Positions 397-16,639 of a stretch of 24,000 nt of DNA are shown one piece after another. A program made the translations under genes and the position numbers. Position 1 is the first letter of the stretch. Each line of letters starts with the position of its first letter. The notes below the pieces were generated by a model that had not been told where the DNA came from, did no database searches, and saw only the letters and a list, made by a program, of their open reading frames with translations. Origin of the DNA: Sphaerisporangium fuscum (GTDB lineage Bacteria > Actinomycetota > Actinomycetes > Streptosporangiales > Streptosporangiaceae); contig NZ_JAHDTF010000005.1 in NCBI RefSeq assembly GCF_018531465.1, forward strand, positions 262,574 through 286,573, in the 5' to 3' direction.

Positions 397-540
397 GGAT
401 CACACATTACGGGCAAGGCATCTGACCGTATGGCGGGTTTGCGACAAGTCGTTATCTAGCCGCCGGGAAAGCATGGACAGCGTCTTTGGACCCCGTTAGG
501 AATTCGGTTGATCTAGTTCTCGGATTCCGGAGGTCCGTTG

Positions 541-3500
541 ATGCGTCGATGGGTGGCGGCGGTCGTCGCCGTGGCGGCGGGGTGCGGCATCGGGCCCGCC
601 GCGTCGGCGGCGGCGGAGGTCCAGAATTCCGCCGTAAACGGTTCCAATACGCCCGCCGCGCCCGAACCGTTCGGAGCCGCGAGCACAGGACCTGCCGACG
701 TCACCCTGCTGACCGGCGACCGCGTCCACGTGACGGACCTCGGAGACGGCCACCAGGCGGCCACGGTCACCCCCGCGCCCCGCGCGGACGGATCGGTGCC
801 GAGCTTCCAGGTGCTGGAGACCACGGCCGGGCTCACCGTCGTCCCCGACGACGTCGCCGGCCTCGTCCCCCGCCGCCTGGACCCGGCGCTGTTCAACGTG
901 ACCACCCTGATCAAGGAGGGCGACGCCGACGCGGCCAGCGGCAGCGTGCCGCTGATCCTCACCTACACCGGCCCGGCGACCCTGGCGGCGGCCCCCGCCG
1001 TCCCGGCCACGCAGGTCACGCGCCGCCTGGAGAGCATCGGCGGCGCCGGGGCGTCGGCCGACAAGAAGCAGGCCGCGCGGCTCGGCGCGGCCCTGGCCGA
1101 GCTGGCGCGCGGCGGGAACAGGGCGGCCGCCGGCCCGCTCGCCGGGGTGGACAAGATCTGGCTGGACCGCAAGGTGACGGCCGTCCTGGACCACAGCGTC
1201 CCGCAGATCTCCGCCCCCGCCGCGTGGGCCGCGGGGTACGACGGCTCGGGCACGACGGTCGCCGTCCTGGACAGCGGGATCGACGCCGCCCACCCCGACC
1301 TCGCCGGAAAGGTCGTGGACGCCCGCGACTTCACCGGCGAGAACGACGTGCGCGACCACCACGGCCACGGGACGCACGTCGCCGACACCATCGCGGGCAG
1401 CGGCGCGGCCTCCGGAGGACGGCTGAAGGGCGTCGCGCCCGGCGCCAAGCTGCTCAACGGCCGGGTCCTCGACGCGGACGGATCGGGCAGCCTGTCCGGG
1501 ATCATCGACGGCATGGAATGGGCGGTCGCCGACAAGCACGCCGACATCGTCAACATGAGCCTCGGCGGCCCCGAGCCCGGCGGCCCGCTCACCGAGGCGG
1601 TGGACGAGCTGACGCGGCGGTACGGCGCCCTGTTCGTCGTCGCGGCCGGCAACCGCGGCTGCGACGCGTGCGTGGGGAGCCCGGGCGACGCCGCCTCGGC
1701 GCTGACCGTGGGCGCGGTGGACGGCTCGGACCGGCTCGCCGACTTCTCCAGCCGGGGTCCCGCCGCCGACTTCTCCGTCAAGCCCGACGTGACCGCGCCC
1801 GGCGTCGGCATCGTGGCCGCGCGGGCGAGCGGCACCTCCCTCGGCGAGCCGGTCGACGCGTCCTACACCAAGCTGTCGGGCACCTCCATGGCGACCCCGC
1901 ACGTCGCCGGGGCCGCCGCGCTGCTGCGGCAGGCGCGGCCGGGCATCCGGGCCGGCGAGCTGAAGGCCGTGCTGATGGGCTCGGCCGAGCGCCAGGACGA
2001 CACCACCGTCGACCAGCAGGGCGCCGGACGCGTGGACGTCGCCGCCGCCCTCGCCGACCCGGTGGCGGCCTCCGCCGGATCCCTGGACTTCGGCCGGGTC
2101 ACCTCCTCCCCCGGTGACCCGGCCGTCCGCAAGCTGACCTACCGCAACCTCGGCGGCTCTCCGGTCCAACTCGCCCTGAGGAGCGGCGACACGTTCGCCG
2201 TGTCGCCCGCCACCCTCACGGTGCCGGCCGGGGGCACGGCCGAGGCGACCGTCGCCCTCGACGCGGCGAAGGCCCCGGAAGGCGTGCTGCGCGAGGAACT
2301 GGTCGCGACGACGCCGCAGGGCGTGAACGTCCGCACCCTGCTGACCGGCGACGTGGAGGAGCCGCGCGTCCGGCTGCGGGTGCGGGGCATCGCCAGGGAC
2401 GGCCGCGCGGCCCGGGGCGGGTTCACCGTGCTCGACCTGGACAGGGGCACGCTCGTCGGCCGGGTGCTGCCCGGGGACGCCGACCAGCCGTGCTCGGAGG
2501 AGAAGTACGGCACGGGGACCTGCCTGCTCGTACCGCCCGGCACCTACTCGGTCCTCGGCCACATCTTCACCATGCCCGCCTGGCAGGACTCCACGGCGGC
2601 CGGGACGCCGCTCAACGAGAGCCTCACCGGTGACCCGGAGATCCGGATCACCAAGGACACCGAGGTCGTGCTGGACGCCCGTAAGGCCGTCGAAGTGAAG
2701 ATCCAGACCCCGGACCACCGCACCAAGCGCAACCTCGGGGCCGCGGCGAGCCTCATGTGGTACCGCGCCCCGGCGCAGGGTGACGCGGTGCTGCGGGGCG
2801 GCACGTACATCGGCCCGGGGTCGCAGATCGAGGAGCGGCTGTTCGTGCAGCCGACCAGGCGCGTCACCAAGGGCACGTTCGCGGTGTCCAGCCGCTGGCT
2901 GCTCGACGCGCCGGCCGTCACGATGAACGCCCTCGGCACCGAGCTGAACCCCGAGTACTACGACCCGAAGTGGTTCAGCGACTACTCGACCGACTTCCCG
3001 CGCCTGGACGGGGTGAAGCTCCTGCTCGCCGCCGACGCCGGGCTCGGCAGGCCCGAGGACCTCAAGGGGAGGAACCTGCGCGGCAGGCTCGCCCTGATCC
3101 GGCGCAGCGACGACATCCCCGTCGCCACCCAGTCCGGCAACGCCGCCGCCGCGGGGGCCGCGATGGTGGCGATCTACAACGACCGCCGCGGCGTCGACCC
3201 CTCGCCGGGCGGACCGGCCGCCAAGCTCACCGTCCCGACGGTACGGCTGTCCGGTGAGGAGGGCGAGAAGCTGCTGGGGATGGTGCGGCGCGTCCCGGTG
3301 CCCGTCCTGACCACGGGCACCGTGGCGAGCCCCTACCAGTACGACCTGCTGCTGCGCGAGCGGGGACGGGTGCCGGACGAGCTGTCGTACGTGGCGCGGA
3401 CCCGCTCGCTGGTCAAGGAGGAGACCGACTTCCGCGGCCAGATCGCGGGCGAGGCCACGGTGGACGAGGCCCGCTACGCCTTCGAGCCGTGGGACACCTA

Positions 3501-4386
3501 CTCGATCACGACGAACCGGCCGGTCGCACGGACCCCGCGCACCCAGGTGACCTACGTCATGCCGGACCCGGAGGTGCGGTGGAACAACGGCGTGACCACG
3601 CCCGAGGCGCCGTACAACTACGCCTGGCCGCGTCCGGAGACGCCGCACCTGCAGTTCCTGGACCCGGAGTTCCACACCTACACGGCCGCCGGCACGGCGC
3701 ACCGCTCCTGGCTGCGGCAGCCCATGGTGCCCGGCGTCAACCCGCGAAACCCGCTGCGCCGGGAGGGTGACGTGCTGCGGGTCTCGATGCAGGGCTTCGT
3801 GGACCCGGCCCGCAACTTCGCCTCGGCGTACTCCAACTCCTACGACCAGGGGCTGCGCACCGACTTCAAGCTGTACCAGGGCGACAGGCTGCTCACCGAG
3901 ACCAAGTACCTGCCGAGCGGCAGCGTCCTGCTCCCGGCCGAGGAAGCGGGATACCGCATCGAGTTCGACGTCGAGAACAAGGCGGCGTGGGCCAGGCTCT
4001 CCACCAGGACGAGCGCGGTGTGGACGTTCTCCTCGCGGCGCACCGCGGAGGGCGGGAAGACGGTGATCCCGCTGCTGCTCGCCGACTACGACGTGGCGCT
4101 GGACGCCGGGAACACGGGCGACCCGTCGTCCATCGGCCTGAAGCTGTACCACCAGCAGGGCGCGGAGGAGAGCAGGGTGAAGGACGTCTCGCTGGAGGTG
4201 TCGTACGACGACGGCGCCACCTGGCGGCCGGTGCGGCGGCTGACCTCCACCGGCACGAACGCCTACAAGGCCTCCCTCGACCGGCCCTCCGCGCGGAACG
4301 GCTTCGTCTCGCTCCGCCTGCACGCGGCCGACGAGCGCGGCGCCACGCTCCAGCAGGAGGTGATCCGCGCCTACGCCACGAGGTGA
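541..4386 (+). CDS. Secreted S8 (subtilisin-like) serine peptidase with PA domain, about 1281 aa
   Basis: Catalytic triad motifs are VAVLDSGID (Asp), HGHGTHVADTIAG (His) and SGTSMATPHVAGAAALL (Ser). The signal peptide is MRRWVAAVVAVAAGCGIGPAASAAA. A PA-like insert reads GRLALIRRSDDIPVATQSGNAAAAGAAMVAIYND. GGAGG at 529..533 lies 7 nt before ATG 541; the track starts at TTG 538. Confidence 0.92.
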   Translation: MRRWVAAVVAVAAGCGIGPAASAAAEVQNSAVNGSNTPAAPEPFGAASTGPADVTLLTGDRVHVTDLGDGHQAATVTPAPRADGSVPSFQVLETTAGLTVVPDDVAGLVPRRLDPALFNVTTLIKEGDADAASGSVPLILTYTGPATLAAAPAVPATQVTRRLESIGGAGASADKKQAARLGAALAELARGGNRAAAGPLAGVDKIWLDRKVTAVLDHSVPQISAPAAWAAGYDGSGTTVAVLDSGIDAAHPDLAGKVVDARDFTGENDVRDHHGHGTHVADTIAGSGAASGGRLKGVAPGAKLLNGRVLDADGSGSLSGIIDGMEWAVADKHADIVNMSLGGPEPGGPLTEAVDELTRRYGALFVVAAGNRGCDACVGSPGDAASALTVGAVDGSDRLADFSSRGPAADFSVKPDVTAPGVGIVAARASGTSLGEPVDASYTKLSGTSMATPHVAGAAALLRQARPGIRAGELKAVLMGSAERQDDTTVDQQGAGRVDVAAALADPVAASAGSLDFGRVTSSPGDPAVRKLTYRNLGGSPVQLALRSGDTFAVSPATLTVPAGGTAEATVALDAAKAPEGVLREELVATTPQGVNVRTLLTGDVEEPRVRLRVRGIARDGRAARGGFTVLDLDRGTLVGRVLPGDADQPCSEEKYGTGTCLLVPPGTYSVLGHIFTMPAWQDSTAAGTPLNESLTGDPEIRITKDTEVVLDARKAVEVKIQTPDHRTKRNLGAAASLMWYRAPAQGDAVLRGGTYIGPGSQIEERLFVQPTRRVTKGTFAVSSRWLLDAPAVTMNALGTELNPEYYDPKWFSDYSTDFPRLDGVKLLLAADAGLGRPEDLKGRNLRGRLALIRRSDDIPVATQSGNAAAAGAAMVAIYNDRRGVDPSPGGPAAKLTVPTVRLSGEEGEKLLGMVRRVPVPVLTTGTVASPYQYDLLLRERGRVPDELSYVARTRSLVKEETDFRGQIAGEATVDEARYAFEPWDTYSITTNRPVARTPRTQVTYVMPDPEVRWNNGVTTPEAPYNYAWPRPETPHLQFLDPEFHTYTAAGTAHRSWLRQPMVPGVNPRNPLRREGDVLRVSMQGFVDPARNFASAYSNSYDQGLRTDFKLYQGDRLLTETKYLPSGSVLLPAEEAGYRIEFDVENKAAWARLSTRTSAVWTFSSRRTAEGGKTVIPLLLADYDVALDAGNTGDPSSIGLKLYHQQGAEESRVKDVSLEVSYDDGATWRPVRRLTSTGTNAYKASLDRPSARNGFVSLRLHAADERGATLQQEVIRAYATR

Positions 4387-6866: not shown

Positions 6867-6948
6867 CGCTTCGGCCAAGGTCATCTCCCTGACCAGCCGG
6901 AGGAATTGCCCAGGTAGGCTGATTCCACTCAATGTGGAAGGTCTCGTG

Positions 6949-8394
6949 ATGACACGAGCACGACCAGCCGGGAGCCCACCGGACTCCATCCACCAGCTCA
7001 CCGGCGATCACGAGGAGAACAGCAAGAAGGATCTCCCGCGCAAGGCGTACGCCTCGCCTGGTCCGTCCGAGGACTCGGGCGACCACACCCGGGCGTACGA
7101 GCGCGGCGGCCCCTTCTGGGATCGGCGGCACGCCGAATTCCTGATCGAGGCGGGCCGACGGTTGTCGGCCTCGCTCAACACACGCCGCTGCGCACGGGCG
7201 ACGGCCGAACTCGCGACCTCACTGCTCGCCGACTTCGCCATGGTGGTGCTGCCCCATGGCCCCCGTCCGGCGTTCTGGCTACGCGCCTGGGCCGGCCGCG
7301 TCGAGGAGGGCACGATCCCGGCGGCGGCGACCGCCGAGGTCTCCGGCCTCGCCGACGCCCTGGCCGGGTTCCCAACCGCGCCCAGTAGCCGGCTCGACCC
7401 CGGGCGGATCCCCTGTTGGGTCCTGCCGGACGGGTTCGGGGAGGTGGGGCATGTGCTCGTGACGCCGCTGCCCGGTAACGAGGGCCCGGCGGGCGCCCTC
7501 CTGCTCGTCCGTGGCCAGGGCGCCCCGCCGTTCGACGAGGAGACCGAGATCCTGGTCCGGGTCTTCGCGGCCCGGGCAGGGGCGGCCGTCGCCGCCGCCG
7601 TGCTGTACCAGGAGCAGAGCGCCGTCAACCGCGTCCTCACGGAGGGGTTGCTGCCACCCCGGCTCCCCGAGATCGACCAGGTCGAGCTGGCGGGATCGCT
7701 GCACGCCTCCCAGCACGCAGGACTGATCGGCGGCGACTTCTACGACGTGTACCTGCCCGGAGGGGGCGGCACGGACACCGCCGGGCACGCGCCGTTGGTG
7801 ATCCTGGGCGACGTGTGCGGCAAGGGAGCGCGGGCCGCCGTGCTCGCCGGGCAGATCCGTCACTCCATGCGGACGCTGCTCCTCCTCGAAGACGACCCGG
7901 AGCGGCTCGTCGAGCTGCTCAACCGCTCCCTGCTGGCCTCGCCCGCGCCCGATTCGTACGCCACGCTGGTGCTGGCCGCTGTGCGCCCCGACCCCGGCGA
8001 CGGGCACGTCGAGGTGGACCTGAGCGTGGCCGGGCATCCCGAGCCGTTGATCCTCCGCGCCGACGGCCGCGTGGAGGTGGTGACCGCCCGGGGCACCATG
8101 CTCGGGGCGCTGCCGCGGATCGACCTCACCTCCGTCACCGTCCGCCTGGCCCCCGGCGAGCTCTGCCTGCTGTACAGCGACGGCATCACCGAGGCACTGG
8201 GCGGCCCCACCCGGGAGGAGCGGTACGAGCTGGAGCGGCTGCGATCCGCCCTGGCCACCTGCGCCGGGATGCCGGCCGCCGCCGTCGTGCAGCGGCTCGA
8301 ACAGATCACCACCGAGTGGATCGCCCGCGGTGACCAGGACGACCGCGCGCTGCTGGCCATCCAGGCCAGGCCGCGTGGCGGAAGGGCGACATGA
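6949..8394 (+). CDS. SpoIIE/PP2C-family (RsbU-like) serine phosphatase with N-terminal GAF-like sensor region
   Basis: PP2C motifs are GGDFYDVYL, VILGDVCGKGARAAVLAGQIR, LLYSDGITEA and DDRALLAIQ. GGAAGG at 6936..6941 lies 7 nt before ATG 6949. GTG 6934 or 6946 are alternative starts. Confidence 0.85.
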   Translation: MTRARPAGSPPDSIHQLTGDHEENSKKDLPRKAYASPGPSEDSGDHTRAYERGGPFWDRRHAEFLIEAGRRLSASLNTRRCARATAELATSLLADFAMVVLPHGPRPAFWLRAWAGRVEEGTIPAAATAEVSGLADALAGFPTAPSSRLDPGRIPCWVLPDGFGEVGHVLVTPLPGNEGPAGALLLVRGQGAPPFDEETEILVRVFAARAGAAVAAAVLYQEQSAVNRVLTEGLLPPRLPEIDQVELAGSLHASQHAGLIGGDFYDVYLPGGGGTDTAGHAPLVILGDVCGKGARAAVLAGQIRHSMRTLLLLEDDPERLVELLNRSLLASPAPDSYATLVLAAVRPDPGDGHVEVDLSVAGHPEPLILRADGRVEVVTARGTMLGALPRIDLTSVTVRLAPGELCLLYSDGITEALGGPTREERYELERLRSALATCAGMPAAAVVQRLEQITTEWIARGDQDDRALLAIQARPRGGRAT

Positions 8395-9425
8395 GCGACC
8401 CCACCGTCACCACCGATCTCAGGGCCGACGTCGAACGGTACCTGGAGCGCATCGGCGCGGCCGACGAGTACGGCGCCATCGACCTGGCACTGGAACTGCT
8501 GGACCACGGCGTACCCGCCGAGCGCCTCCTGCTGGAACTCGTCGCGCCCGCCCAGCATCGCGTGGGCGAACTGTGGGCGGCCAACGAGTGGTCGGTGGCC
8601 CGGGAGCACGGGGCGACGGCGGTCAGCGAGCGCGTGGTCGCCGCCATCGCCTCCAGGGCGCGCACCACCCCACGGCACGGGCGGGTCACGGTCGCCTGCG
8701 CCGACGGCGAGTACCACCAGCTGCCCACCCGTCTGCTCGCCGAGGTGCTGCGGCTGCGCGGCTGGCAGGTGGACTTCCTCGGCGCCAGCGTCCCCGGTTC
8801 GCATCTGGTCACCCACCTGCACCAGACGGGACCGGACGCCGTGGCGCTCGGCTGCGCGCTGCCCACACGGCTGCCCCGCGCGCACGCCACGATCATCGCC
8901 TGCCAGAGCGCCGGGACACCGGTGCTGGCGGGCGGGGCGGGATTCGGACCGGACGGCCGGTACGCCCGGCTGCTCGGCGCCGACGGTTGGGCGCCCACCG
9001 CGGACGCCGCCGCCGACCACCTCCAGGCCGGACTGCTGCCGTCCTTCCCGGCCTCGCCGCACCCCGTCTCCCATGTGGCCTGCGAGGAGTACTCCCACCT
9101 GCTGCGGCGCCGCGCCGATCTCACCGTCGGCACGATGGGGGCGCTGGCCGACGCCTACCCGCCCATGGCCTCCTACAGCCCACAGCAGCTGGAATCCACG
9201 GCCGACGACCTGGGGCACATCGTCGATTTCCTCGCGGCCGCGCTGTATGTGGACGACACCGCGCTGTTCACGGACTTCGTCCACTGGACCTGCGACATTC
9301 TTGCGGCCCGCCACGTCCCGGCCGACTCGGTGGCCCTGGGCCTGCGTCTCCTCCACGACGCCCTGCCCGACCTCCCCCGGGCCCGCACCCTGCTGACCGC
9401 GGGTGTTCAGGCCGCCCACCGCTGA
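8391..9425 (+). CDS. Cobalamin (B12)-binding-domain protein without a DNA-binding domain, plus a C-terminal helical domain of unknown function
   Basis: The N-terminal helical bundle (ELVAPAQHRVGELWAANEWSVAREHGATAV) is followed by a Rossmann-like B12 domain: VTVACADGEYHQLPTRLLAEVLRLRGWQVDFLGASVP...PVLAGGAGF. This gives an ExH motif with His present and Pro where the consensus has Gly. An ATGA start/stop overlap with the phosphatase gene lies at 8391..8394, with GGAAGGG just upstream. Confidence 0.75.
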   Translation: MSDPTVTTDLRADVERYLERIGAADEYGAIDLALELLDHGVPAERLLLELVAPAQHRVGELWAANEWSVAREHGATAVSERVVAAIASRARTTPRHGRVTVACADGEYHQLPTRLLAEVLRLRGWQVDFLGASVPGSHLVTHLHQTGPDAVALGCALPTRLPRAHATIIACQSAGTPVLAGGAGFGPDGRYARLLGADGWAPTADAAADHLQAGLLPSFPASPHPVSHVACEEYSHLLRRRADLTVGTMGALADAYPPMASYSPQQLESTADDLGHIVDFLAAALYVDDTALFTDFVHWTCDILAARHVPADSVALGLRLLHDALPDLPRARTLLTAGVQAAHR

Positions 9426-10615: not shown

Positions 10616-11458
10616 ATGCCTTCGGCGCCCCCGCAGGAAGAGCGGGAACGAATCACCGGCCCGCCTCCTCGACGCGGCCACCGAAGGGATCACCTCATGC
10701 TGAACGACCTGCCCCACCTGTCCGCCGGCGAGGGACCGCCCCTGGTCGTCCTGCTCTACACCCCACAGGCGGCCAACCCGACGGGGGTGGCCCGCTGGTC
10801 CACCATGCGGCTGGTACGACCGTTCACCGGACACTTCAGCGTCCACGTCGTCAACCGCCCGCCCGGCCTGCCGCCGACGACGACGATGGCCGACCTCGCC
10901 GCCGTCTACGCCGACGCGATCAGGACCACCTTCGAGCACCCGGTGGCCGTGCTGGCCATCTCCACCGGCGGATCGATCGCCCTGCAACTCGCCGCCGACC
11001 ATCCCGACCTGGTGGACCGTCTCGTCCTGGCCGGGGCCGCCTGCACCCTCGGCCCCGTGGGCAGGCGCGCCCAGCGCGCGTACATCGAACGGGCACGCCA
11101 GGGCAGGCACCCCAGCCCGGCCCTGGCCGAGGTCGTCACGGAATCGAGGATCGGCCGGACACTGCTCAAAGGCCTGCTGTGGCTGTCGGACGCCGGCCGG
11201 CAAGATCACAGTGATGCCGTGACCGTGCTCAACGCCGAGGACGGCTTCGACCTGCGCGGACGGCTGGGCGACATCACGGCGGCCACCCTGCTGATCCAGG
11301 GCGACAGGGACGTCGTCTACCCGCTGGAGCTGGCCCGGCAGACGGTGGCAGGCATCCCGGACGCCCGGCTCGTCATCTACCCGGGCCGCACTCACAGCGC
11401 CACGTTCACCGACAAGCGCTTCGCACCCGACGCCCTGGCCTTCCTGACGGGCGGGTGA
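10616..11458 (+). CDS. Alpha/beta-fold hydrolase
   Basis: Nucleophile elbow VAVLAISTGGSIALQLAADHPDLVDRLVLAGA, acid region LLIQGDRDVVYP, and His region PGRTHSATF. GGAG at 10607..10610 precedes ATG 10616. ATG 10697 (MLNDL...) is an alternative start. Confidence 0.8.
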   Translation: MPSAPPQEERERITGPPPRRGHRRDHLMLNDLPHLSAGEGPPLVVLLYTPQAANPTGVARWSTMRLVRPFTGHFSVHVVNRPPGLPPTTTMADLAAVYADAIRTTFEHPVAVLAISTGGSIALQLAADHPDLVDRLVLAGAACTLGPVGRRAQRAYIERARQGRHPSPALAEVVTESRIGRTLLKGLLWLSDAGRQDHSDAVTVLNAEDGFDLRGRLGDITAATLLIQGDRDVVYPLELARQTVAGIPDARLVIYPGRTHSATFTDKRFAPDALAFLTGG

Positions 11459-11626
11459 CCGGTCCCGCCCGGAACGGCAAAGGGAGCGGCACATCTCGAA
11501 CGCATATTCGAAGAATCGGCCGAGGGTGCGTGGAGTCCGTTGCGAACACGTCCGAGATGTTGATATTGCTTGCGCTAGCGAGCCCGCCCGAGGGATCTCA
11601 GATCCTTTTGCTGGGAGGTGGGTCGC

Positions 11627-11911
11627 GTGGCGAGGTCGAGACAGCGCAGGCTGGTCCGGGGGCTGGAGGACGCCTCCACGGTGGTCAGGGCCACGACCGG
11701 CCTGCTCCGGCAGACGTCGAGCCTGCTCCGCCAGCTCGTCATGATCGTGGGATGGCTGGTCCTGCTGGCCGGCTCGGTACGACTGCTGCTCACCCCTACC
11801 GCGACACTCTCCCCCGAACACTTCCTGACCCCCGGCGCCGGCGCCGCCGCCGTCGCCCAGGGCCTGCTCCGGATGCCCGCACGCAAAGGACGATCGACTT
11901 CGGATCATTGA
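11627..11911 (+). CDS. Small single-TM membrane protein, copy A (hypothetical)
   Basis: VARSRQRRLVRGLEDASTVVRATTGLLRQTSSLLRQLVMIVGWLVLLAGSVRLLLTPTATLSPEHFLTPGAGAAAVAQGLLRMPARKGRSTSDH. GC3 is very high in this frame only. GGGAGG at 11613..11618 lies 8 nt before GTG 11627. The palindrome GGATCTcAGATCC sits at 11593..11605 just upstream. Confidence 0.55.
   Translation: MARSRQRRLVRGLEDASTVVRATTGLLRQTSSLLRQLVMIVGWLVLLAGSVRLLLTPTATLSPEHFLTPGAGAAAVAQGLLRMPARKGRSTSDH
11659..11887 (+). repeat. Left copy of a roughly 230-bp direct repeat (pairs with 14155..14389)
   Basis: Hand alignment against 14155..14389 gives 4 substitutions plus one 6-bp indel (GCCGTC). The repeat covers the core of the small membrane-protein ORF. 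Confidence 0.9.
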
Positions 11912-12138
11912 TACCTACGACCCCGCCGGCCTGCCACGCCGATAGCTCCGGCCACTTGTTGAGCAAGATGACGGAACTTGGAGTTTATAACCGTTTTAAC
12001 GGAAATGACTTCGCCACCCATGCGACCGATATTGTTATATCGGACTTAACATTATCGCAGGAGGGCACATGCGGCCCCTCTCCATGCTTTGATCAAGAAC
12101 CTCGGCGATGAAAAAGTTTCAGCCGGTGAGTCGATGGG

Positions 12139-12831
12139 ATGATTCGAAGCATGAGCGGCGCCGTCGTCGATCTCCTGGAACGGCCGACCTACACGATGTC
12201 ACAGGTCGACCGGCTGATCGGTCTACCCTTGGGCACCGCGCGACGCTGGGTCGACGGATATTCCCGTAATGGCCGCACTTACGAGCCAGTCGTCCGGCAA
12301 AGCCGCACAGGCGACATGATGGCGACATGGGGCGAATTCGTGGAAGCCCGGCTGCTCGCCGAGTACCGCAACGCAGGCGTCCCCATGATCAACATGCGGC
12401 CGGCCATCACCAAGCTCAGAGCCGAGACCGGCGCCCGGTATCCCCTCGCACACCTGGCCAATTTCGTGACACCACACGGCAAAGAGCTTGTGTGGCGGGT
12501 GCAGGAGCAGGTGCGCCTGCAGGCGGAGCTTCTTCTCGTCATACCACGCAACGGGCAGTTGGTCATGGCCGAAGCCGTCGAGATCTTCGTCAATGCCGTG
12601 GAGTTCGACGACGACACCGTGGTGCGCATGCTTCCCGACCTCAGAACTCCGGAGGTCAAGATCGACCCACTGCGCGCCTTCGGCGAGCCCGCGGTCCGGT
12701 CGGTGCCCACCGAAGTGATCGCCGAGCAGGTTCGGGCGGGCGACTCCGAGGAATTGATCGCAGATCTCTACGAGCTGCCGCTGGAACAGGTGCGGCAAGC
12801 AGTTTTGTTCGAGAAGCTCCGCAGCGCCTGA
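12139..12831 (+). CDS. MerR-like HTH + DUF433 domain protein (antitoxin-like)
   Basis: The N-terminus YTMSQVDRLIGLPLGTARRWV is HTH-like. The C-terminus KIDPLRAFGEPAVRSVPTEVIAEQVRAGDSEELIADLYELPLEQVRQAVLFE fits the DUF433 pattern. GC3 is lower than in neighbouring genes. ATG 12151 is an alternative start. Confidence 0.7.
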   Translation: MIRSMSGAVVDLLERPTYTMSQVDRLIGLPLGTARRWVDGYSRNGRTYEPVVRQSRTGDMMATWGEFVEARLLAEYRNAGVPMINMRPAITKLRAETGARYPLAHLANFVTPHGKELVWRVQEQVRLQAELLLVIPRNGQLVMAEAVEIFVNAVEFDDDTVVRMLPDLRTPEVKIDPLRAFGEPAVRSVPTEVIAEQVRAGDSEELIADLYELPLEQVRQAVLFEKLRSA

Positions 12832-12846
12832 CCTACCCGGACCACC

Positions 12847-13275
12847 ATGCCCCCCATAGATCCGCGAGGTCTGCGCTTCTTCGTCGACGAGACCTCCCTC
12901 GGCGTCGGCCGCGCGCTTGCTCTCCTACGCCGGGACGTCATCCACACCAGCCATCCGCTGATCCCAGAGGTACCGCTCGGCACTTTGGACGACGAGTGGA
13001 TCCCCAAGGTCGCCGCCAGAGATCTCGTCGTCATCACACGAGACAAGCGCATCCGTACCAAGCACGCCAAGGCGATGCTCTACGCCGAGCACAAAGCGCG
13101 AGTCTTCTGGATCGCCGGCAAGAGAGATCTGTCCAACTGGGACACGATGTGCCTGCTCACCCGCCGATGGGACGACATCGAGCGCGAGATCAAGGAACAC
13201 GGCCCGGGACCGTGGTTCATGGCGATCAATGAGTCGAGGCTCAGTGAGATGTGCATACATGGAGATCGGCGCTAG
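12847..13275 (+). CDS. PIN-like (DUF5615 / Mut7-C-like) putative nuclease, toxin-like partner of the DUF433 protein
   Basis: LRFFVDETSLGVGRALALLRRDVIHTSHPLIPEVPLGTLDDEWIPKVAARDLVVITRDKRIR matches the DUF5615 layout: an acidic D/E near the N-terminus, D-x-E/W mid-region, and T-x-D after a hydrophobic strand. It lies 15 nt downstream of the DUF433 gene. Confidence 0.55.
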   Translation: MPPIDPRGLRFFVDETSLGVGRALALLRRDVIHTSHPLIPEVPLGTLDDEWIPKVAARDLVVITRDKRIRTKHAKAMLYAEHKARVFWIAGKRDLSNWDTMCLLTRRWDDIEREIKEHGPGPWFMAINESRLSEMCIHGDRR

Positions 13276-13315
13276 GACGGAGCCCTGGTGCTGCCCACCC
13301 AACGACGAACCCCCA

Positions 13316-13334
13316 CCCTTCCGCGGCGGAAGGG
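13316..13334. terminator. Short hairpin between convergent genes
   Basis: CCCTTCC gcggc GGAAGGG lies between the stop at 13273..13275 (+) and the stop at 13340..13342 (-). Confidence 0.4.
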
Positions 13335-13339
13335 GCGCG

Positions 13340-13561
13340 TCATCCGCCCGTGGCGTCCTCGGCCTCCCAGCGCAGCAGGTCGCCTGGCTGGCACTCGAGC
13401 ACCTCACAGAGGGCGGCGAGAGTCGTGAAGCGCACGGCCTTGGCGCGGCCGTTCTTGAGTACCGCCAGGTTGGCGGGCGTGATCCCTACGCGGTCCGCGA
13501 GTTCGCCCACGGACATCTTCCGTTTGGCCAGCATCACGTCGATGTCGACGGCGATCGGCAT
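13340..13561 (-). CDS. XRE/Cro-type HTH transcriptional regulator (YozG-like, 73 aa)
   Basis: MPIAVDIDVMLAKRKMSVGELADRVGITPANLAVLKNGRAKAVRFTTLAALCEVLECQPGDLLRWE is the classic short YozG-type HTH. Its ATG overlaps the upstream gene stop (TGATG at 13563..13559). Confidence 0.85.
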   Translation of the reverse strand: MPIAVDIDVMLAKRKMSVGELADRVGITPANLAVLKNGRAKAVRFTTLAALCEVLECQPGDLLRWEAEDATGG

Positions 13562-14052
13562 CAGATCACCTCGTCCAGCTCGGCCTGCATCTGCGCCGCT
13601 TCGGCGTCGCGCGCGACGGCCTGGGCGAGCAGCATCCGCAGCACGAGCACGATGAGCGCGACCCCCAGGATGGCCACGCCGATCCCGCCCATGATGACGG
13701 TGACGCCCGGGTCGTCCCGCTGGCCCGGCGCATTGAGGGCCGTGACCGCGAACCACACGAGCGCAGCCGCCACGATGGCGCCAATGATGACATCCACGTA
13801 CCGGAAGGCGGCGTGGGAGAACACGGTTCCGCGTCGCACCATCGTCACCAGCCGCCACACGCAGACCCCGATGACCTGGATCGTCCCGATACCCAGGATC
13901 GTGATCACGCGCAGCGAGGTCAGCGGGAGCGACCCGTCCTCCGGGTCGTTTCCGCTGATCAACGTCCACACCATCAATGCCTGTACGGACACGGTGCCGA
14001 CGAGCATCACCACGAGCACGGCGCGCAGCGCGCGCACTGTCAGCTTCCCCAT
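13561..14052 (-). CDS. DUF2975-family membrane protein (4 TM)
   Basis: MGKLTVRALRAVLVVMLVGTVSVQALMVW...FRYVDVIIGAIVAAALVWFAV...VIMGGIGVAILGVALIVLVLRMLLAQA. It has the usual operon partnership with a YozG-like HTH. GGAAGG is the SD before ATG 14052. Confidence 0.8.
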   Translation of the reverse strand: MGKLTVRALRAVLVVMLVGTVSVQALMVWTLISGNDPEDGSLPLTSLRVITILGIGTIQVIGVCVWRLVTMVRRGTVFSHAAFRYVDVIIGAIVAAALVWFAVTALNAPGQRDDPGVTVIMGGIGVAILGVALIVLVLRMLLAQAVARDAEAAQMQAELDEVI

Positions 14053-14063
14053 GGCCCACCCTT

Positions 14064-14101
14064 CCATCGATTTGCGATGGAAATCTATCGAATTTCGATA
14101 G
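14064..14101. promoter_or_regulatory. Two perfect palindromes upstream of the DUF2975/HTH operon (candidate operators)
   Basis: CCATCG atttg CGATGG at 14064..14080, and the 17-bp perfect palindrome CTATCGAA t TTCGATAG at 14085..14101. Both share a TCGA core. Confidence 0.5.
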
Positions 14102-14428
14102 GTGAAGCAAGAGCTGACCCGGAGGGGCGGGCCGCCCTGGCCGCAAGCAGCGCAGGGGCTGGAGGACGCCTCCACGGTGGTCAGGGCGACGACCGGCCTG
14201 CTCCGGCAGACGTCGAGCCTGCTCCGCCAGCTCGTCATGATCGTGGGATGGCTGGTCCTGCTGGCCGGCTCGGTACGACTGCTGCTCACCCCTCCCGCGA
14301 CACTCTCCCCCGAACACTTCCTGACCCCCGGCCCCGGCGCCGCCGCCGTCGCCGTCGCCCAGGGCCTCCTCCGGATGCCCGCACGCAAACAGAGACCCGA
14401 CGCGGTCAGTCCTCGCCCACCACGGTGA
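14102..14428 (+). CDS. Small single-TM membrane protein, copy B (duplicate of 11627..11911 with different N- and C-termini)
   Basis: VKQELTRRGGPPWPQAAQGLEDASTVVRATTGLLRQTSSLLRQLVMIVGWLVLLAGSVRLLLTPPATLSPEHFLTPGPGAAAVAVAQGLLRMPARKQRPDAVSPRPPR. There is no convincing SD before GTG 14102. The 3' end overlaps the convergent hydrolase gene by 23 nt. This copy may be a non-functional duplicate. Confidence 0.4.
   Translation: MKQELTRRGGPPWPQAAQGLEDASTVVRATTGLLRQTSSLLRQLVMIVGWLVLLAGSVRLLLTPPATLSPEHFLTPGPGAAAVAVAQGLLRMPARKQRPDAVSPRPPR
14155..14389 (+). repeat. Right copy of the roughly 230-bp direct repeat (pairs with 11659..11887)
   Basis: See the left copy. This copy is identical except for 4 substitutions and a 6-bp insertion. 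Confidence 0.9.
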
Positions 14429-15527
14429 GGTCGTCGCCCAGAGCCGCCGCGATCTCGGCCGCGCGGGAGTGGTCGCCCAGGCGGCGGGTCAGGTACGCGG
14501 CGCCGTGGCGATGCCGGCGCGACCACCAGGCGGCGGAGCCGCCGATGCCGCCCTTGGCGATCTTGCCATGGTCGCGGACGAAGCCCAGCGTCCACGTGAT
14601 CCGGGTGCCGAAGACCTCATCGAAGTCCGTGACCTGCGGCTCCAGCAGCTCAGCGTGCAGCTCCGGCCCGAGCAGCCGGCGTACGGGACCGTCCTCGGCG
14701 GTGAGCTCCGCGAAGAAGCGGGCCATGGCGGTGGCGGTGGCGTGCAGGTTGACCGCGCCGAAGACCGACTGCCGCCAGGCCCGGGAGTTGGCCCGCTCGA
14801 CGTCGAGCACGCCGCCAGGGATCTGCAGCCACGGGGCCGCGTGCAGCAGGCGCGGCCAAGCCGGATCGGCGTACTCCAGGTCGGCGACGCGGCCCAGCTC
14901 GTCGTCCGGCACTCCGAACCAGGCGTCCAGGCCCAGCGCGGGGCGCACCACCCCGTCGTACACCTCGTGCAACGTGGTGCCGGCCGCCGCGCGCAGGATG
15001 CCGTCGACGAGGTGGCCGTAGGTCAGCGCGTGCTCGCCGAGCGAGCTGCCGGGTGGGTACTCCGGAGCCGCCGCCACCAGGCTCTCGCGCAGCGCGGCGT
15101 CGTCCAGCAGGTCCACCTCCGCCGCCGCGACCGGGAAGCGGGGCTGGCCGGCCCGGTGGGTGAGCACCTGCCGCAGCGTGGTCGCCTCCTTGCCGTTGAG
15201 ACCGTACGCGGGCCAGTGGCGGGCGATCGGCTCGTCCAGCGTCAGTGCGCCATCGCGCACCGCCACCAGGGCGGCGAGCGTGACGAACGACTTCGAGAGC
15301 GAGTAGGGCTGGACCAGCGTGCCCGCCTGCCAGGGACGGGTCCGCGCCGCATCGGCCCACCCCGCGTCGAGCCGGACGACCTCGCGCTCGTCCTTCCACA
15401 CCGACACGCCCGCCCCGGTCTCCCTGCCCTCGTCCACCAGCTTCCGGAAGACCTCGCGTACCGGCTCGTACCCATCCGCGACGAACCCTTCGACCTTCAC
15501 CCACGCTCTCCCTTCGCCGGAAGCCAC
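14406..15527 (-). CDS. Serine hydrolase, beta-lactamase/transpeptidase fold (class C / EstB-like esterase family), cytoplasmic
   Basis: The SxxK motif is in QPYSLSKSFVTLAALVAV. There is no signal peptide. Typical family length is about 370 aa. The start is GTG 15527; an internal GTG (VKVEGF...) is an alternative. Confidence 0.85.
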   Translation of the reverse strand: MASGEGRAWVKVEGFVADGYEPVREVFRKLVDEGRETGAGVSVWKDEREVVRLDAGWADAARTRPWQAGTLVQPYSLSKSFVTLAALVAVRDGALTLDEPIARHWPAYGLNGKEATTLRQVLTHRAGQPRFPVAAAEVDLLDDAALRESLVAAAPEYPPGSSLGEHALTYGHLVDGILRAAAGTTLHEVYDGVVRPALGLDAWFGVPDDELGRVADLEYADPAWPRLLHAAPWLQIPGGVLDVERANSRAWRQSVFGAVNLHATATAMARFFAELTAEDGPVRRLLGPELHAELLEPQVTDFDEVFGTRITWTLGFVRDHGKIAKGGIGGSAAWWSRRHRHGAAYLTRRLGDHSRAAEIAAALGDDLTVVGED

Positions 15528-15575
15528 AATAGTACCGCTACGGGGTATGGGTAGTACCGGCGTGGCTATTGTGGC
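15523..15575. promoter_or_regulatory. 10-bp inverted repeat GCCACAATAG...CTATTGTGGC enclosing two TAGTACCG direct repeats
   Basis: The arms lie at 15523..15532 and 15566..15575. TAGTACCG occurs at 15530..15537 and 15552..15559. The left arm overlaps the hydrolase GTG start. The element sits in the divergent region with the nitroreductase gene. Confidence 0.4.
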
Positions 15576-15675
15576 GGTTGTGTCGTCACATCCTGAGCCC
15601 CTTCGCCAACAGCCCGTGTTCCGCGCTCATGGTGATCTTGACGGAGGCGCTCGGACCGGTCCACCGGCGTCAGGT

Positions 15676-16245
15676 ATGAACACCCCGCAGCTCACATCGG
15701 CGCTACAGGGGCGTTTCAGTCCCCTGCGCTTCGATCCGAACCACCAGCTGTCCGACGCGGACGTCGTGACCGTGCTGGAGGCAGCCAGGTGGGCCCCCTC
15801 TGCCGGGAACGCTCAGCCCTGGTCGTTCCATGTGCGCCGGCGAGGAGAGGAGGGGCACGATCAACTTGTCGAACACCTCGCCGCGAGCTCACGCCGATGG
15901 GCACCCGCCGCCAGCGCGCTGGTCGTCAACATGGCTCGTCGCGAAGTCGACGACAGCGGCATGACCTACTCCGAGTTCGCCGACTACGACCTCGGCCAGG
16001 CGGTGGCCCACATGACTGTGCAGGCCCACGCGATGGGCCTGGCCTGCCGGCAGTTCCGCGCCTTCGATCTCGAAGGACTGCACGACACGCTCGGAGTCAG
16101 GCCCGGTTGGCACATCCTCACGATGACGGCCATCGGAGTTCCGCCCCGAGGCGACACGACACCGCCTGCACGAGAGCGCCGGAGCATCGTGGACCTACGA
16201 ACCGCAGGAGTGTCGTCTCCACCACACAGGCGTCTACAGGGGTGA
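15676..16245 (+). CDS. Nitroreductase-family protein
   Basis: RFSPLRFDPNHQLSDADVVTVLEAARWAPSAGNAQPWSFHV is the typical nitroreductase N-terminal signature. ATG 15676 was chosen because the track start (15319) is antisense to the neighbouring gene. Confidence 0.85.
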   Translation: MNTPQLTSALQGRFSPLRFDPNHQLSDADVVTVLEAARWAPSAGNAQPWSFHVRRRGEEGHDQLVEHLAASSRRWAPAASALVVNMARREVDDSGMTYSEFADYDLGQAVAHMTVQAHAMGLACRQFRAFDLEGLHDTLGVRPGWHILTMTAIGVPPRGDTTPPARERRSIVDLRTAGVSSPPHRRLQG

Positions 16246-16376
16246 GCAGGACGGGTCTGCGGTGAACACGCCCGATCCGCCCTCGGGGCCGGAGTCCTCC
16301 ACCGCGATCAAGTCCTCCGGCCCTGCCACCGCCGAGGCCGGCAGCGGGTTTCGTGGATCGGTCGCCGCGGGACGGC

Positions 16377-16405
16377 GGGTTCCTCCGCTGCCGGCGGAGG
16401 AACCC
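16377..16405. terminator. Perfect 12-bp GC-rich hairpin between convergent genes
   Basis: GGGTTCCTCCGC tgccg GCGGAGGAACCC lies between the nitroreductase stop (16245) and the DUF397 stop (16427). Confidence 0.5.
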
Positions 16406-16426
16406 CCGAATGCGCGGGGACGCGGA

Positions 16427-16639
16427 TCAGAAGTCGAACTCGCCCTTCTTGGCGCCGTCGATGAACGCACTCCACACACTCGCGCTCAACACGAACGGCT
16501 CCTTCTCCGGAGCCTCGGTATCCCTCACCCCCACCCGCCCACCGGCCAGCGGAGCCACCTCCAGGCAGTTCCCCTGGTCCGACCCACTCTTGGTCGCCTT
16601 GCGCCAGGCAGCCGTCCTCAGCTCATCGTTCAGGTCCAC
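16427..16639 (-). CDS. DUF397 (BldB-like) small protein
   Basis: VDLNDELRTAAWRKATKSGSDQGNCLEVAPLAGGRVGVRDTEAPEKEPFVLSASVWSAFIDGAKKGEFDF has the WRKS..S....CVEVA...V.VRD...P signature. Its GTG start overlaps the upstream XRE gene end by 10 nt. Confidence 0.85.
   Translation of the reverse strand: MDLNDELRTAAWRKATKSGSDQGNCLEVAPLAGGRVGVRDTEAPEKEPFVLSASVWSAFIDGAKKGEFDF

What the first reader, a model, noticed from the sequence alone, without database searches (positions are those of the whole stretch)
11659..14389. A 2.27-kb cassette bracketed by roughly 230-bp, roughly 98%-identical direct repeats that duplicate a small membrane-protein gene
Seen in sequence:
- 11659..11887 and 14155..14389 differ by only 4 substitutions and one 6-bp indel.
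- They bracket 11888..14154, which begins with a conspicuously AT-rich 250-bp stretch.
- The bracketed segment carries two self-contained two-gene modules: HTH-DUF433/PIN-like, and XRE-HTH/DUF2975.
- Each repeat is the core of a small single-TM ORF. The two ORF copies have unrelated N-termini and unrelated C-termini. Copy A has a good SD, while copy B has none and runs 23 nt into the convergent gene.

Inference:
- This is a recent insertion or duplication event.
- Possible mechanisms are integration of an island carrying a homologous gene fragment, or recombination between paralogues.
- No integrase or transposase is visible, so the mechanism is unclear.
- The repeats should allow precise excision by homologous recombination.
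Basis: partly seen in the sequence, partly recalled or inferred. Interest (0 to 1): 0.6.

Follow-up and report, generated by a model that had tools for sequence, protein, structure and literature searches.

The report
Orphan gene fragment in patchwork locus
The 230-bp direct repeat is real, but its second copy is a dead internal piece of a small membrane-protein gene sitting at a seam between separately acquired gene patches in a rearrangement-prone Sphaerisporangium locus, not the end of a mobile island, so this is an ordinary recombination scar.

Summary
11659-11887 and 14155-14389 differ by 4 substitutions and one 6-bp indel, and they are the only two copies in the 10.1-Mb genome.

The interpretation needs changing.
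- Copy A (11618-11911) is the complete gene. It belongs to a small single-TM family found only in Sphaerisporangium ("fam0") and keeps the conserved leader and N-terminus.
- Copy B is only an internal fragment, about codons 14-90. To its left lies the XRE/DUF2975 module. To its right, 16 nt away, lies the stop codon of the serine hydrolase. Its "C-terminus" is the antisense of that gene's conserved end.
- The DUF433/PIN pair is not foreign. DUF433-PIN-DUF397 is a conserved backbone in Sphaerisporangium and Streptosporangium.
- Against that backbone, the extra DNA is 13257-16428: XRE/DUF2975, fragment B, serine hydrolase and nitroreductase.
- XRE/DUF2975 is a separate 0.8-kb unit found in unrelated contexts in many genomes.

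I found no integrase and no recurrence of the cassette as a unit. No close strain was available, so an empty site could not be sought.

Best reading: a scar of illegitimate or homology-assisted recombination in a locus that is a hotspot for gene gain. RecA could delete the 2.5 kb between the repeats. Interest is low.

The parts
10697..11458 (+). alpha/beta hydrolase, 253 aa from the start used by database homologues. It is the last gene of the left accessory patch (DUF2992, DUF6653, hydrolase), which is not found at this locus in the congeners examined.
   Evidence: Pfam Hydrolase_4/Abhydrolase_1. Closest homologues are 84-86% identical, in Streptosporangium and Nonomuraea. The C-terminus is conserved almost to the last residues. 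No hit at E<=1e-5 (tblastn) in the fam0 loci L015-L024 of ten congeners; at E<=1e-8 in six more loci, L026-L031.
11463..11617 (+). Conserved fam0 leader. It holds the inverted repeat TCGAA-N6-TTCGA, a strongly conserved block TTGATATTGCTTGCGCTAGCGAGCCC, and a hairpin just before the Shine-Dalgarno sequence and the GTG start.
   Evidence: Alignment with 10 congeners. BLASTN matches of relatives begin at window 11463-11496.
11618..11911 (+). fam0 copy A: the complete small single-TM gene (97 aa), with the native N-terminus and a short Arg-rich tail, ARKGRSTSDH.
   Evidence: Aligns from residue 1 with homologues of 10 congeners. The tail resembles short-tailed family members such as ...RWWRSTRP and ...RRGRTRRP. 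The family is found only under Sphaerisporangium names or in unnamed environmental contigs.
11659..11887 (+). Direct repeat, copy A (codons about 14-90 of fam0).
11888..12019 (+). About 130 bp with no match anywhere: the last 8 codons of fam0A plus its probable 3' untranslated region.
   Evidence: No match in the own genome or in relatives.
12020..12138 (+). AT-rich promoter and leader region of the DUF433/PIN operon.
   Evidence: Alignable with the equally AT-rich region upstream of DUF433 in Sphaerisporangium and Streptosporangium loci.
12139..12831 (+). HTH_66 + DUF433 protein (230 aa), the predicted antitoxin.
   Evidence: Pfam. 75-82% aa identity in the 7 closest Sphaerisporangium and Streptosporangium loci (60-69% in three more distant ones), always followed by a PIN gene or a remnant of one. 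PIN-COG2442/DUF433 pairs were predicted to be toxin-antitoxin systems in PMC2701414.
12847..13275 (+). PIN_10 nuclease-like protein (142 aa), the predicted toxin.
   Evidence: Pfam E = 2.6e-14. 81-92% aa identity in relatives. Homology to relatives ends at about 13251-13256.
13257..16428 (.). 3.17 kb that interrupts the conserved PIN-terminator-DUF397 junction. It holds XRE/DUF2975, fam0 fragment B, the serine hydrolase and the nitroreductase.
   Evidence: Homology to relatives stops at about 13256 and resumes at about 16429. In G017 the same junction is 93 nt long.
13332..14135 (-). Self-contained XRE(HTH_26)/DUF2975 operon with its palindromic operator region. XRE is 13340-13576. DUF2975 is 13561-14100, with a likely true start at 14085.
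   Evidence: Pfam. 79-93% nt identity in many genomes, with homology ending at the same two points and unrelated flanks.
14136..14154 (.). 19-nt junction of unknown origin. It contains CAGCGCAGG, which also occurs 10 nt upstream of repeat A.
   Evidence: The short match is not significant on its own.
14155..14389 (+). Direct repeat, copy B: an internal fam0 fragment without leader, Shine-Dalgarno sequence, native N-terminus or native tail.
14390..14405 (.). 16-nt spacer between fragment B and the stop codon of the serine hydrolase.
   Evidence: Identity to the G019 orthologue stops at the stop codon.
14406..15527 (-). Serine hydrolase of the beta-lactamase family (EstA / CubicO type).
   Evidence: Pfam E = 3e-51. 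The C-terminus ...DDLTVVGED is conserved to the last residue in homologues. The closest homologues are 85% identical, in Nonomuraea.
15640..16245 (+). Nitroreductase-family gene, the right end of the extra DNA.
   Evidence: Pfam. Not found within 8 kb of DUF433/PIN in 15 loci.
16427..16639 (-). DUF397 gene, where the conserved backbone resumes.
   Evidence: 83-89% aa identity in the best loci (80% in L034); adjacent to PIN or DUF433 in relatives.

Best explanation
The repeat is a recombination scar, not the ends of a mobile element.

Copy A is the functional fam0 gene. Copy B is a promoterless internal fragment of fam0, either of A itself or of an allele about 2% diverged. It lies exactly at the seam between two separately acquired patches: the XRE/DUF2975 unit and the serine hydrolase-nitroreductase pair. 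Together these fill the otherwise conserved PIN|DUF397 junction.

Most likely mechanism: two versions of this hypervariable locus recombined, with homology on one side and an illegitimate join on the other. One version was fam0-DUF433-PIN. The other had fam0 abutting the hydrolase. The result placed a partial fam0 copy downstream of the resident DUF433/PIN. Later erosion by neighbouring insertions may have helped.

Shown:
- the anatomy of both copies
- that DUF433/PIN is a resident of the locus
- the extent of the extra DNA
- that XRE/DUF2975 is an independent unit
- that no recombinase gene is present

Inferred:
- the recombination mechanism and the order of events
- that RecA can delete the roughly 2.5 kb between the repeats
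- that loss of the DUF433/PIN pair would be penalised by toxin-antitoxin addiction
For: 1. Only copy A aligns with congeners from the leader and residue 1. Copy B starts at codon 14.
2. B's right flank is 16 nt followed by the hydrolase stop codon. The hydrolase C-terminus is conserved to its last residue, so B's 'tail' is fortuitous antisense.
3. B's left flank is the upstream end of the XRE/DUF2975 unit, whose homology in 9 congeners and in soil-metagenome contigs stops at 14113-14135.
4. DUF433-PIN lies downstream of fam0 in G017, G014, G001 and G003. It is adjacent to DUF397 in Sphaerisporangium and Streptosporangium. In the window, homology breaks at about 13256 and resumes at about 16429.
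5. The PIN|DUF397 junction also holds an unrelated 5-kb gene set in Streptosporangium sp. NPDC006007, so it is a recurrent gain site.
6. XRE/DUF2975 is never next to DUF433/PIN in 15 loci and sits in unrelated flanks in every genome examined.
7. No integrase lies within 250 kb on the contig, and the variable regions of relatives hold no mobility genes.
8. The flanking hydrolases have their closest homologues in other genera and are not neighbours there.
9. PMC5361080 describes the same kind of outcome for Rhs/T6SS loci: a conserved anchor and orphaned partial copies, explained by homology-facilitated illegitimate recombination.
Against: - No conspecific or near-identical genome exists in the databases searched, so neither hypothetical parental allele has been seen.
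- The two junctions of B show no significant microhomology.
- Whether tail A is the native fam0 tail rests on a weak 3-5-residue resemblance.
- fam0 copy A is itself in a non-ancestral position. In four congeners fam0 lies upstream of SpoIIE-B12, whereas here it lies downstream. The history therefore involves more events than I can order.
- A single-crossover integration gives the same final topology.
Confidence: 0.5

Rival explanations
1. Cassette integration. A circular DNA of about 2.5 kb carried a 5'-truncated fam0 fragment, DUF433/PIN and XRE/DUF2975. It integrated into the chromosomal fam0 by a single (Campbell-type) crossover, or through an integrase supplied in trans. This duplicated the 229-bp homology, and the segment can excise again as a circle.
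For: Direct repeats of the shared homology flanking the insert are exactly the Campbell topology. Copy A keeps the native 5' end and copy B lacks it. The segment has lower GC, 0.53-0.67 against 0.71. The genome encodes 27 tyrosine-recombinase matches elsewhere that could in principle act in trans.
Against: - DUF433/PIN is a resident, syntenic part of this locus and is linked to DUF397 across two genera. Both donor and recipient would need independently broken PIN|DUF397 junctions.
- The unit is not seen elsewhere: DUF433/PIN and XRE/DUF2975 are never adjacent in 15 + 9 loci.
- B's tail is not a native fam0 3' end.
- There is no integrase, replication or transfer gene in or near the segment.
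- A 229-bp att site would be unusually long.
Confidence: 0.15
2. Templated filler. Fragment B was copied in situ from copy A, 2.3 kb away. The copy arose by a template switch during replication or break repair while the XRE/DUF2975 and hydrolase patches were being joined, in the manner of microhomology-mediated break-induced replication (MMBIR). B was therefore never part of a full second gene.
For: B is an internal piece bounded within 16-19 nt by two unrelated patches. Its only relative in the genome is the nearby copy A. A 7-9-nt match, CAGCGCA(GG), abuts B's left end and recurs 10 nt upstream of repeat A. Using congeners as outgroup, B carries 3 derived changes and A carries 1, as expected for a copy that decays.
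Against: The microhomology is not significant. Long templated insertions of this kind are poorly documented in actinomycetes (my knowledge). The 1.7% divergence would have to have accumulated afterwards.
Confidence: 0.2
3. Assembly artefact: a chimeric join or a strain mixture created the second copy.
For: The genome is a 94-contig draft with 6.95% estimated contamination. No reads were available to check it.
Against: The two copies differ at 4 sites plus an indel. Both junctions of B are unique sequence in the middle of a 354-kb contig. No alternative-haplotype contig carries fam0. A 230-bp repeat is shorter than typical read pairs, so assemblers resolve it.
Confidence: 0.04

Closest known systems
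Orphaned partial gene copies in Rhs / CDI / T6SS effector loci, explained by homology-facilitated illegitimate recombination (Kirchberger et al. 2017, PMC5361080; de Vries & Wackernagel 2002 and Prudhomme et al. 2002, as cited there)
   Same: A conserved anchor gene borders a variable region. New DNA is added without mobility genes. A partial copy of the anchor is left downstream as a direct repeat, which can later mediate homologous deletion or swapping.
   Different: fam0 is a roughly 100-aa membrane protein, not a polymorphic toxin, and there is no immunity gene. Fragment B lacks both ends rather than keeping an alternative 3' tip. The mechanism is inferred here, not demonstrated.
Campbell-type (single-crossover) integration, and integrative elements that duplicate part of a protein-coding target gene, such as e14 / phage 21 in E. 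coli icd (recalled from memory, not checked here)
   Same: A direct duplication of a gene segment flanks inserted DNA. The upstream copy stays intact and the downstream copy lacks its 5' end.
   Different: There is no integrase. The 'insert' contains the resident DUF433/PIN genes of the locus. The downstream copy does not carry the native 3' end. The unit does not recur elsewhere.
PIN-COG2442 (DUF433) type II toxin-antitoxin pairs, including winged-HTH-DUF433 fusions such as Rv2018/Rv2019 (Makarova et al. 2009, PMC2701414)
   Same: An HTH-DUF433 gene is followed 15 nt later by a PIN-like gene. The pair is conserved as a pair in relatives.
   Different: The toxin belongs to the PIN_10 family. 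Neither toxicity nor neutralisation has been tested. Several relatives carry truncated PIN genes.
Flexible genomic islands / gene-gain hotspots between conserved flanking genes
   Same: Each species has a different set of ordinary accessory genes between the same conserved neighbours. Patch borders fall within about 20 nt of gene ends. There are no mobility genes.
   Different: Here one conserved border gene has been partly duplicated inside the hotspot.

Membership tests
Site-specific integrative element (integrase plus att repeats) | Recombinase gene within or next to the element | tested here: not met
   Pfam on all cassette and flanking ORFs. The nearest PF00589 match on the contig is about 256 kb away.
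Site-specific integrative element (integrase plus att repeats) | Direct repeats (attL/attR) at both ends | tested here: met
   229/235-nt repeats, although far longer than usual att identity segments.
Site-specific integrative element (integrase plus att repeats) | The same unit recurs in other genomes, or an empty site exists in relatives | tested here: not met
   DUF433/PIN and XRE/DUF2975 are never adjacent in 24 other loci. An empty site could not be tested because no close strain is available.
Campbell-type integration of a circle carrying a gene fragment | Inserted DNA is foreign to the locus, and the downstream copy keeps the native 3' end of the target gene | tested here: not met
   DUF433/PIN is syntenic with relatives. 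B's tail is a spacer plus antisense of the hydrolase end.
Homology-facilitated illegitimate recombination / orphan-fragment displacement | A partial copy of a conserved anchor gene lies next to DNA absent from relatives | tested here: met
   Fragment B lies inside the 13257-16428 extra DNA.
Homology-facilitated illegitimate recombination / orphan-fragment displacement | Illegitimate junction with microhomology, and an identifiable donor allele | tested here: inconclusive
   There is only a 7-9-nt match near the left junction, not significant. No donor or parental allele is in the databases.
Simple tandem duplication | Both copies continue into the same flanking sequence on at least one side | tested here: not met
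   Flanks on both sides are no more similar than shuffles.
PIN-DUF433 (COG2442) type II toxin-antitoxin | Adjacent co-directional DUF433 and PIN-like genes, conserved as a pair | tested here: met
   Pfam HTH_66 + DUF433 and PIN_10. The pair is found in 10+ loci.
PIN-DUF433 (COG2442) type II toxin-antitoxin | The toxin arrests growth and the antitoxin neutralises it | not testable with these tools
   Needs expression tests.

The most novel reading that the evidence does not exclude
The fam0 core serves as a reusable homologous docking site. Strains of this species would exchange the segment between the repeats (DUF433/PIN plus XRE/DUF2975) as a RecA-excisable and re-insertable cassette, with no recombinase of its own. 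Fragment B also lies antisense in the 3' untranslated region of the serine-hydrolase transcript, where it could pair with fam0A mRNA over 229 nt. The duplication would then be maintained for function and would not be a decaying scar.
Probability: 0.07. Interest if true: 0.5.

Novelty: new member of a known kind. Interest (0 to 1): 0.2.

Why it matters
The result is mainly a correction. What looked like a small island with att-like ends is a junction scar in a locus that is a hotspot for gene gain. The genes inside the 'cassette' include the oldest residents of the locus. It gives a clean natural example, in a little-studied actinomycete genus, of gene patches being added with borders within about 20 nt of gene ends and without mobility genes. 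It also shows how a partial copy of a border gene can arise, and that copy may later drive deletion. The practical consequences are limited to annotation (copy B should be called a pseudogene fragment) and a predicted 2.5-kb deletion polymorphism.

Tried and rejected
- Empty site: searching 19 congeners, 200 genomes of the family, exact-protein look-up, a 5.8-billion-protein search and SRA runs found no relative closer than about 80% at fam0. This decisive test was therefore impossible.
- Which 3' tail is native, by local alignment against congeners' tails: no signal for either tail.
- Residual homology beyond the repeat ends, which would suggest old paralogues homogenised by gene conversion: none found, so I rejected it.
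- A third fam0 remnant upstream of SpoIIE, where congeners have fam0: none. Homology to congeners upstream of SpoIIE begins at about 6911.
- A 66-nt match to the repeat start in G003 contig 59 is a chance hit inside an unrelated coding region.
- Rfam, tRNA and promoter/terminator scans of 11300-14600 gave nothing useful.
- PADLOC and NCBIfam gave no assignment for the cassette proteins beyond generic HTH hits.
- An unfiltered tblastx of the window against the loci was uninformative because of high-GC noise.
- Genome G036 is unpublished. It appears only among the weak hits, and no claim here rests on it.


Full report
**Observation.** The direct repeat is real. 11659-11887 (229 nt) and 14155-14389 (235 nt) align end to end with four substitutions and one 6-bp insertion in copy B, and identity drops abruptly on both sides. 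The differences are:
- two synonymous changes (codons 25 and 83 of ORF A)
- two replacements (T61P and A74P)
- an in-frame Ala-Val insertion

The 10.1-Mb genome holds exactly these two copies, and the second matches at E = 9e-106. Sequence beyond either end is no more similar than shuffled sequence. That excludes old paralogues homogenised by gene conversion.

**The small gene.** Database names place the window in Sphaerisporangium. I call the small ORF family fam0. Its members are 90-160 aa long, have one hydrophobic helix and match no Pfam family. The family was found only under Sphaerisporangium names or in unnamed environmental contigs, and the closest non-self member is 80% identical. The congeneric species genomes with a match each carry a single copy (17 of the 19 listed), at 75-82% nucleotide identity. 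Copy A aligns with them from about 150 nt upstream of the start codon. That stretch is a strongly conserved leader with a TCGAA-N6-TTCGA inverted repeat and a hairpin in front of the Shine-Dalgarno sequence. The alignment continues through the N-terminus. The C-terminal tails of the family are variable. Several members end in short Arg-rich tails (RWWRSTRP, RRGRTRRP) that resemble A's ARKGRSTSDH. Copy A is therefore the complete, expressed gene.

**Copy B.** Copy B begins at codon 14 of fam0 and has no leader, no Shine-Dalgarno sequence and no native N-terminus.
- *Left flank.* This is the promoter-distal end of the XRE/DUF2975 unit. Homology of that unit in nine congeners and in soil-metagenome contigs stops at 14113-14135. 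That leaves 19 nt of unknown origin.
- *Right flank.* Only 16 nt separate the repeat from the stop codon of the serine hydrolase. Identity to the G019 orthologue ends at that stop codon. The hydrolase C-terminus ...DDLTVVGED is conserved to the last residue in ten homologues.
- *Consequence.* The 'C-terminus' of ORF B is a spacer plus the antisense of another gene's coding end, not a fam0 tail. B is an internal fragment.
- *Decay.* With congeners as outgroup, B carries three derived changes, A carries one, and one is ambiguous. This fits a decaying copy.

**The bracketed segment is not one unit.**
- DUF433-PIN lies a few kb downstream of fam0 in G017, G014, G001 and G003.
- In a wider search, DUF433-PIN is followed within 90-360 nt by a convergent DUF397 gene in both Sphaerisporangium and Streptosporangium.
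- The AT-rich region from about 12020 to 12138 aligns with the equally AT-rich region upstream of DUF433 in those genomes. It is the operon's own promoter region, not a sign of foreign origin.
- In the window, homology to this backbone stops at about 13256 and resumes at about 16429, the stop codon of DUF397. In G017 the same junction is 93 nt long and contains a terminator hairpin.
- Relative to the backbone, the extra DNA is therefore 13257-16428: XRE/DUF2975, fragment B, serine hydrolase and nitroreductase. None of these occurs within 8 kb of DUF433/PIN in 15 other loci.
- In Streptosporangium sp. NPDC006007 the same PIN|DUF397 junction holds a different 5-kb set of ordinary genes. The junction is a recurrent site of gene gain.

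**XRE/DUF2975 is independent.** The 0.78-kb operon, from the XRE stop codon to about 50 nt beyond its palindromic operators, occurs in 54 of 201 sampled genomes of the family and in 32 of 90 genera. It is usually present once, at up to 93% nucleotide identity in other genera. That is higher than for any other gene of this locus. Flanks are unrelated in all nine congeners examined and in soil-metagenome contigs.

**The rest of the locus is a patchwork.**
- The conserved left neighbours in congeners are a polysaccharide deacetylase and an Rce1-like protease. Here they lie just left of the window. About 12 kb of other genes separates them from fam0A.
- In four congeners SpoIIE-B12 follows fam0, but here it precedes fam0.
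- The alpha/beta hydrolase to the left of fam0A and the serine hydrolase to the right of B have their closest homologues (84-86%) in Nonomuraea and Streptosporangium, where the two genes lie on different contigs.
- Patch borders fall within about 20 nt of gene ends.
- Neither the window nor the variable regions of relatives contain an integrase, transposase or transfer gene. The nearest tyrosine-recombinase match is about 256 kb away.

**Mechanism.** All models must explain a complete fam0, then resident DUF433/PIN, then an internal fam0 fragment wedged between two unrelated patches.
- *Favoured (0.5):* recombination between two versions of this hypervariable locus, with homology on one side and an illegitimate join on the other. 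Later erosion by neighbouring insertions may have contributed. This needs the fewest breaks of the conserved PIN|DUF397 linkage. It matches how orphaned partial copies are explained in Rhs/T6SS loci (PMC5361080).
- *In-situ templated copy of A during repair (0.2):* this fits the internal-fragment anatomy equally well, but the junction microhomology is not significant.
It requires the resident DUF433/PIN to have been on a circle, a native fam0 tail that B does not have, and a unit that is seen nowhere else.
- *Assembly artefact:* unlikely but untested, because no reads exist.

The anatomy is shown. The mechanism and the order of events are inferred.

**Consequences (inferred).** RecA-dependent recombination between the repeats, which start 2,496 nt apart, would delete both two-gene modules. 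It would leave fam0 with B's fortuitous tail. The DUF433/PIN pair belongs to the predicted PIN-COG2442 toxin-antitoxin class (PMC2701414). If it is active, it would penalise that loss.

**Verdict.** This is a new example of a known kind of event, a partial gene duplication at a recombination junction in a gene-gain hotspot. It is of low general interest.

Noticed in passing
window 13332-14135; loci L004, L006-L009, L011-L014: The XRE(HTH_26)/DUF2975 operon behaves as a sharply bounded 0.78-kb unit. It occurs in 54 of 201 genomes and 32 of 90 genera of the family, mostly once per genome. Identity reaches 93% nt across genera, higher than for neighbouring genes. Flanks are unrelated in every genome and in soil-metagenome contigs. 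It carries no mobility gene and no terminal repeats. How it spreads is unexplained.
   Followed up: partly
window 11463-11617: The fam0 leader is conserved across 10 congeners. It holds the inverted repeat TCGAA-N6-TTCGA, an almost invariant block TTGATATTGCTTGCGCTAGCGAGCCC, and a hairpin with varying stem sequence just upstream of the Shine-Dalgarno sequence. It has no Rfam match. It is probably an operator plus a regulatory leader.
   Followed up: partly
window 6911-9425 versus 11618: In four congeners (G002, G018, G007, G003) fam0 lies immediately upstream of the SpoIIE-B12-binding gene pair. Here it lies 2.2 kb downstream of that pair, and a TetR gene occupies the old position. So even the intact fam0 copy is not at its ancestral place.
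   Followed up: partly
window 10697-11458 and 14406-15527: Both hydrolase genes flanking the fam0 copies have their closest homologues (84-86% aa) in Nonomuraea and Streptosporangium rather than in Sphaerisporangium. This suggests separate horizontal acquisitions.
   Followed up: partly
L018 (G003) and L020 (G007), fam0 homologues: Two congeners carry an extra 7-residue unit (21 nt) within the GLLRQxS-LLRQL region of fam0. This is a heptad-like internal repeat that expands and contracts.
   Followed up: no
L017 (G001), L018/L037 (G003), L032: In several relatives the PIN gene next to DUF433 is truncated or missing while DUF433 and DUF397 remain. The toxin half of the pair is being lost repeatedly.
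   Followed up: no
window 570-663: ARAGORN calls a 94-nt tRNA-Pro(CGG) inside the subtilase ORF (538-4386). This is probably a false positive.
   Followed up: no
whole genome G000: The assembly is reported as 100% complete with 6.95% contamination. No second haplotype of this locus was found, but the figure is worth keeping in mind for other duplications in this genome.
   Followed up: partly
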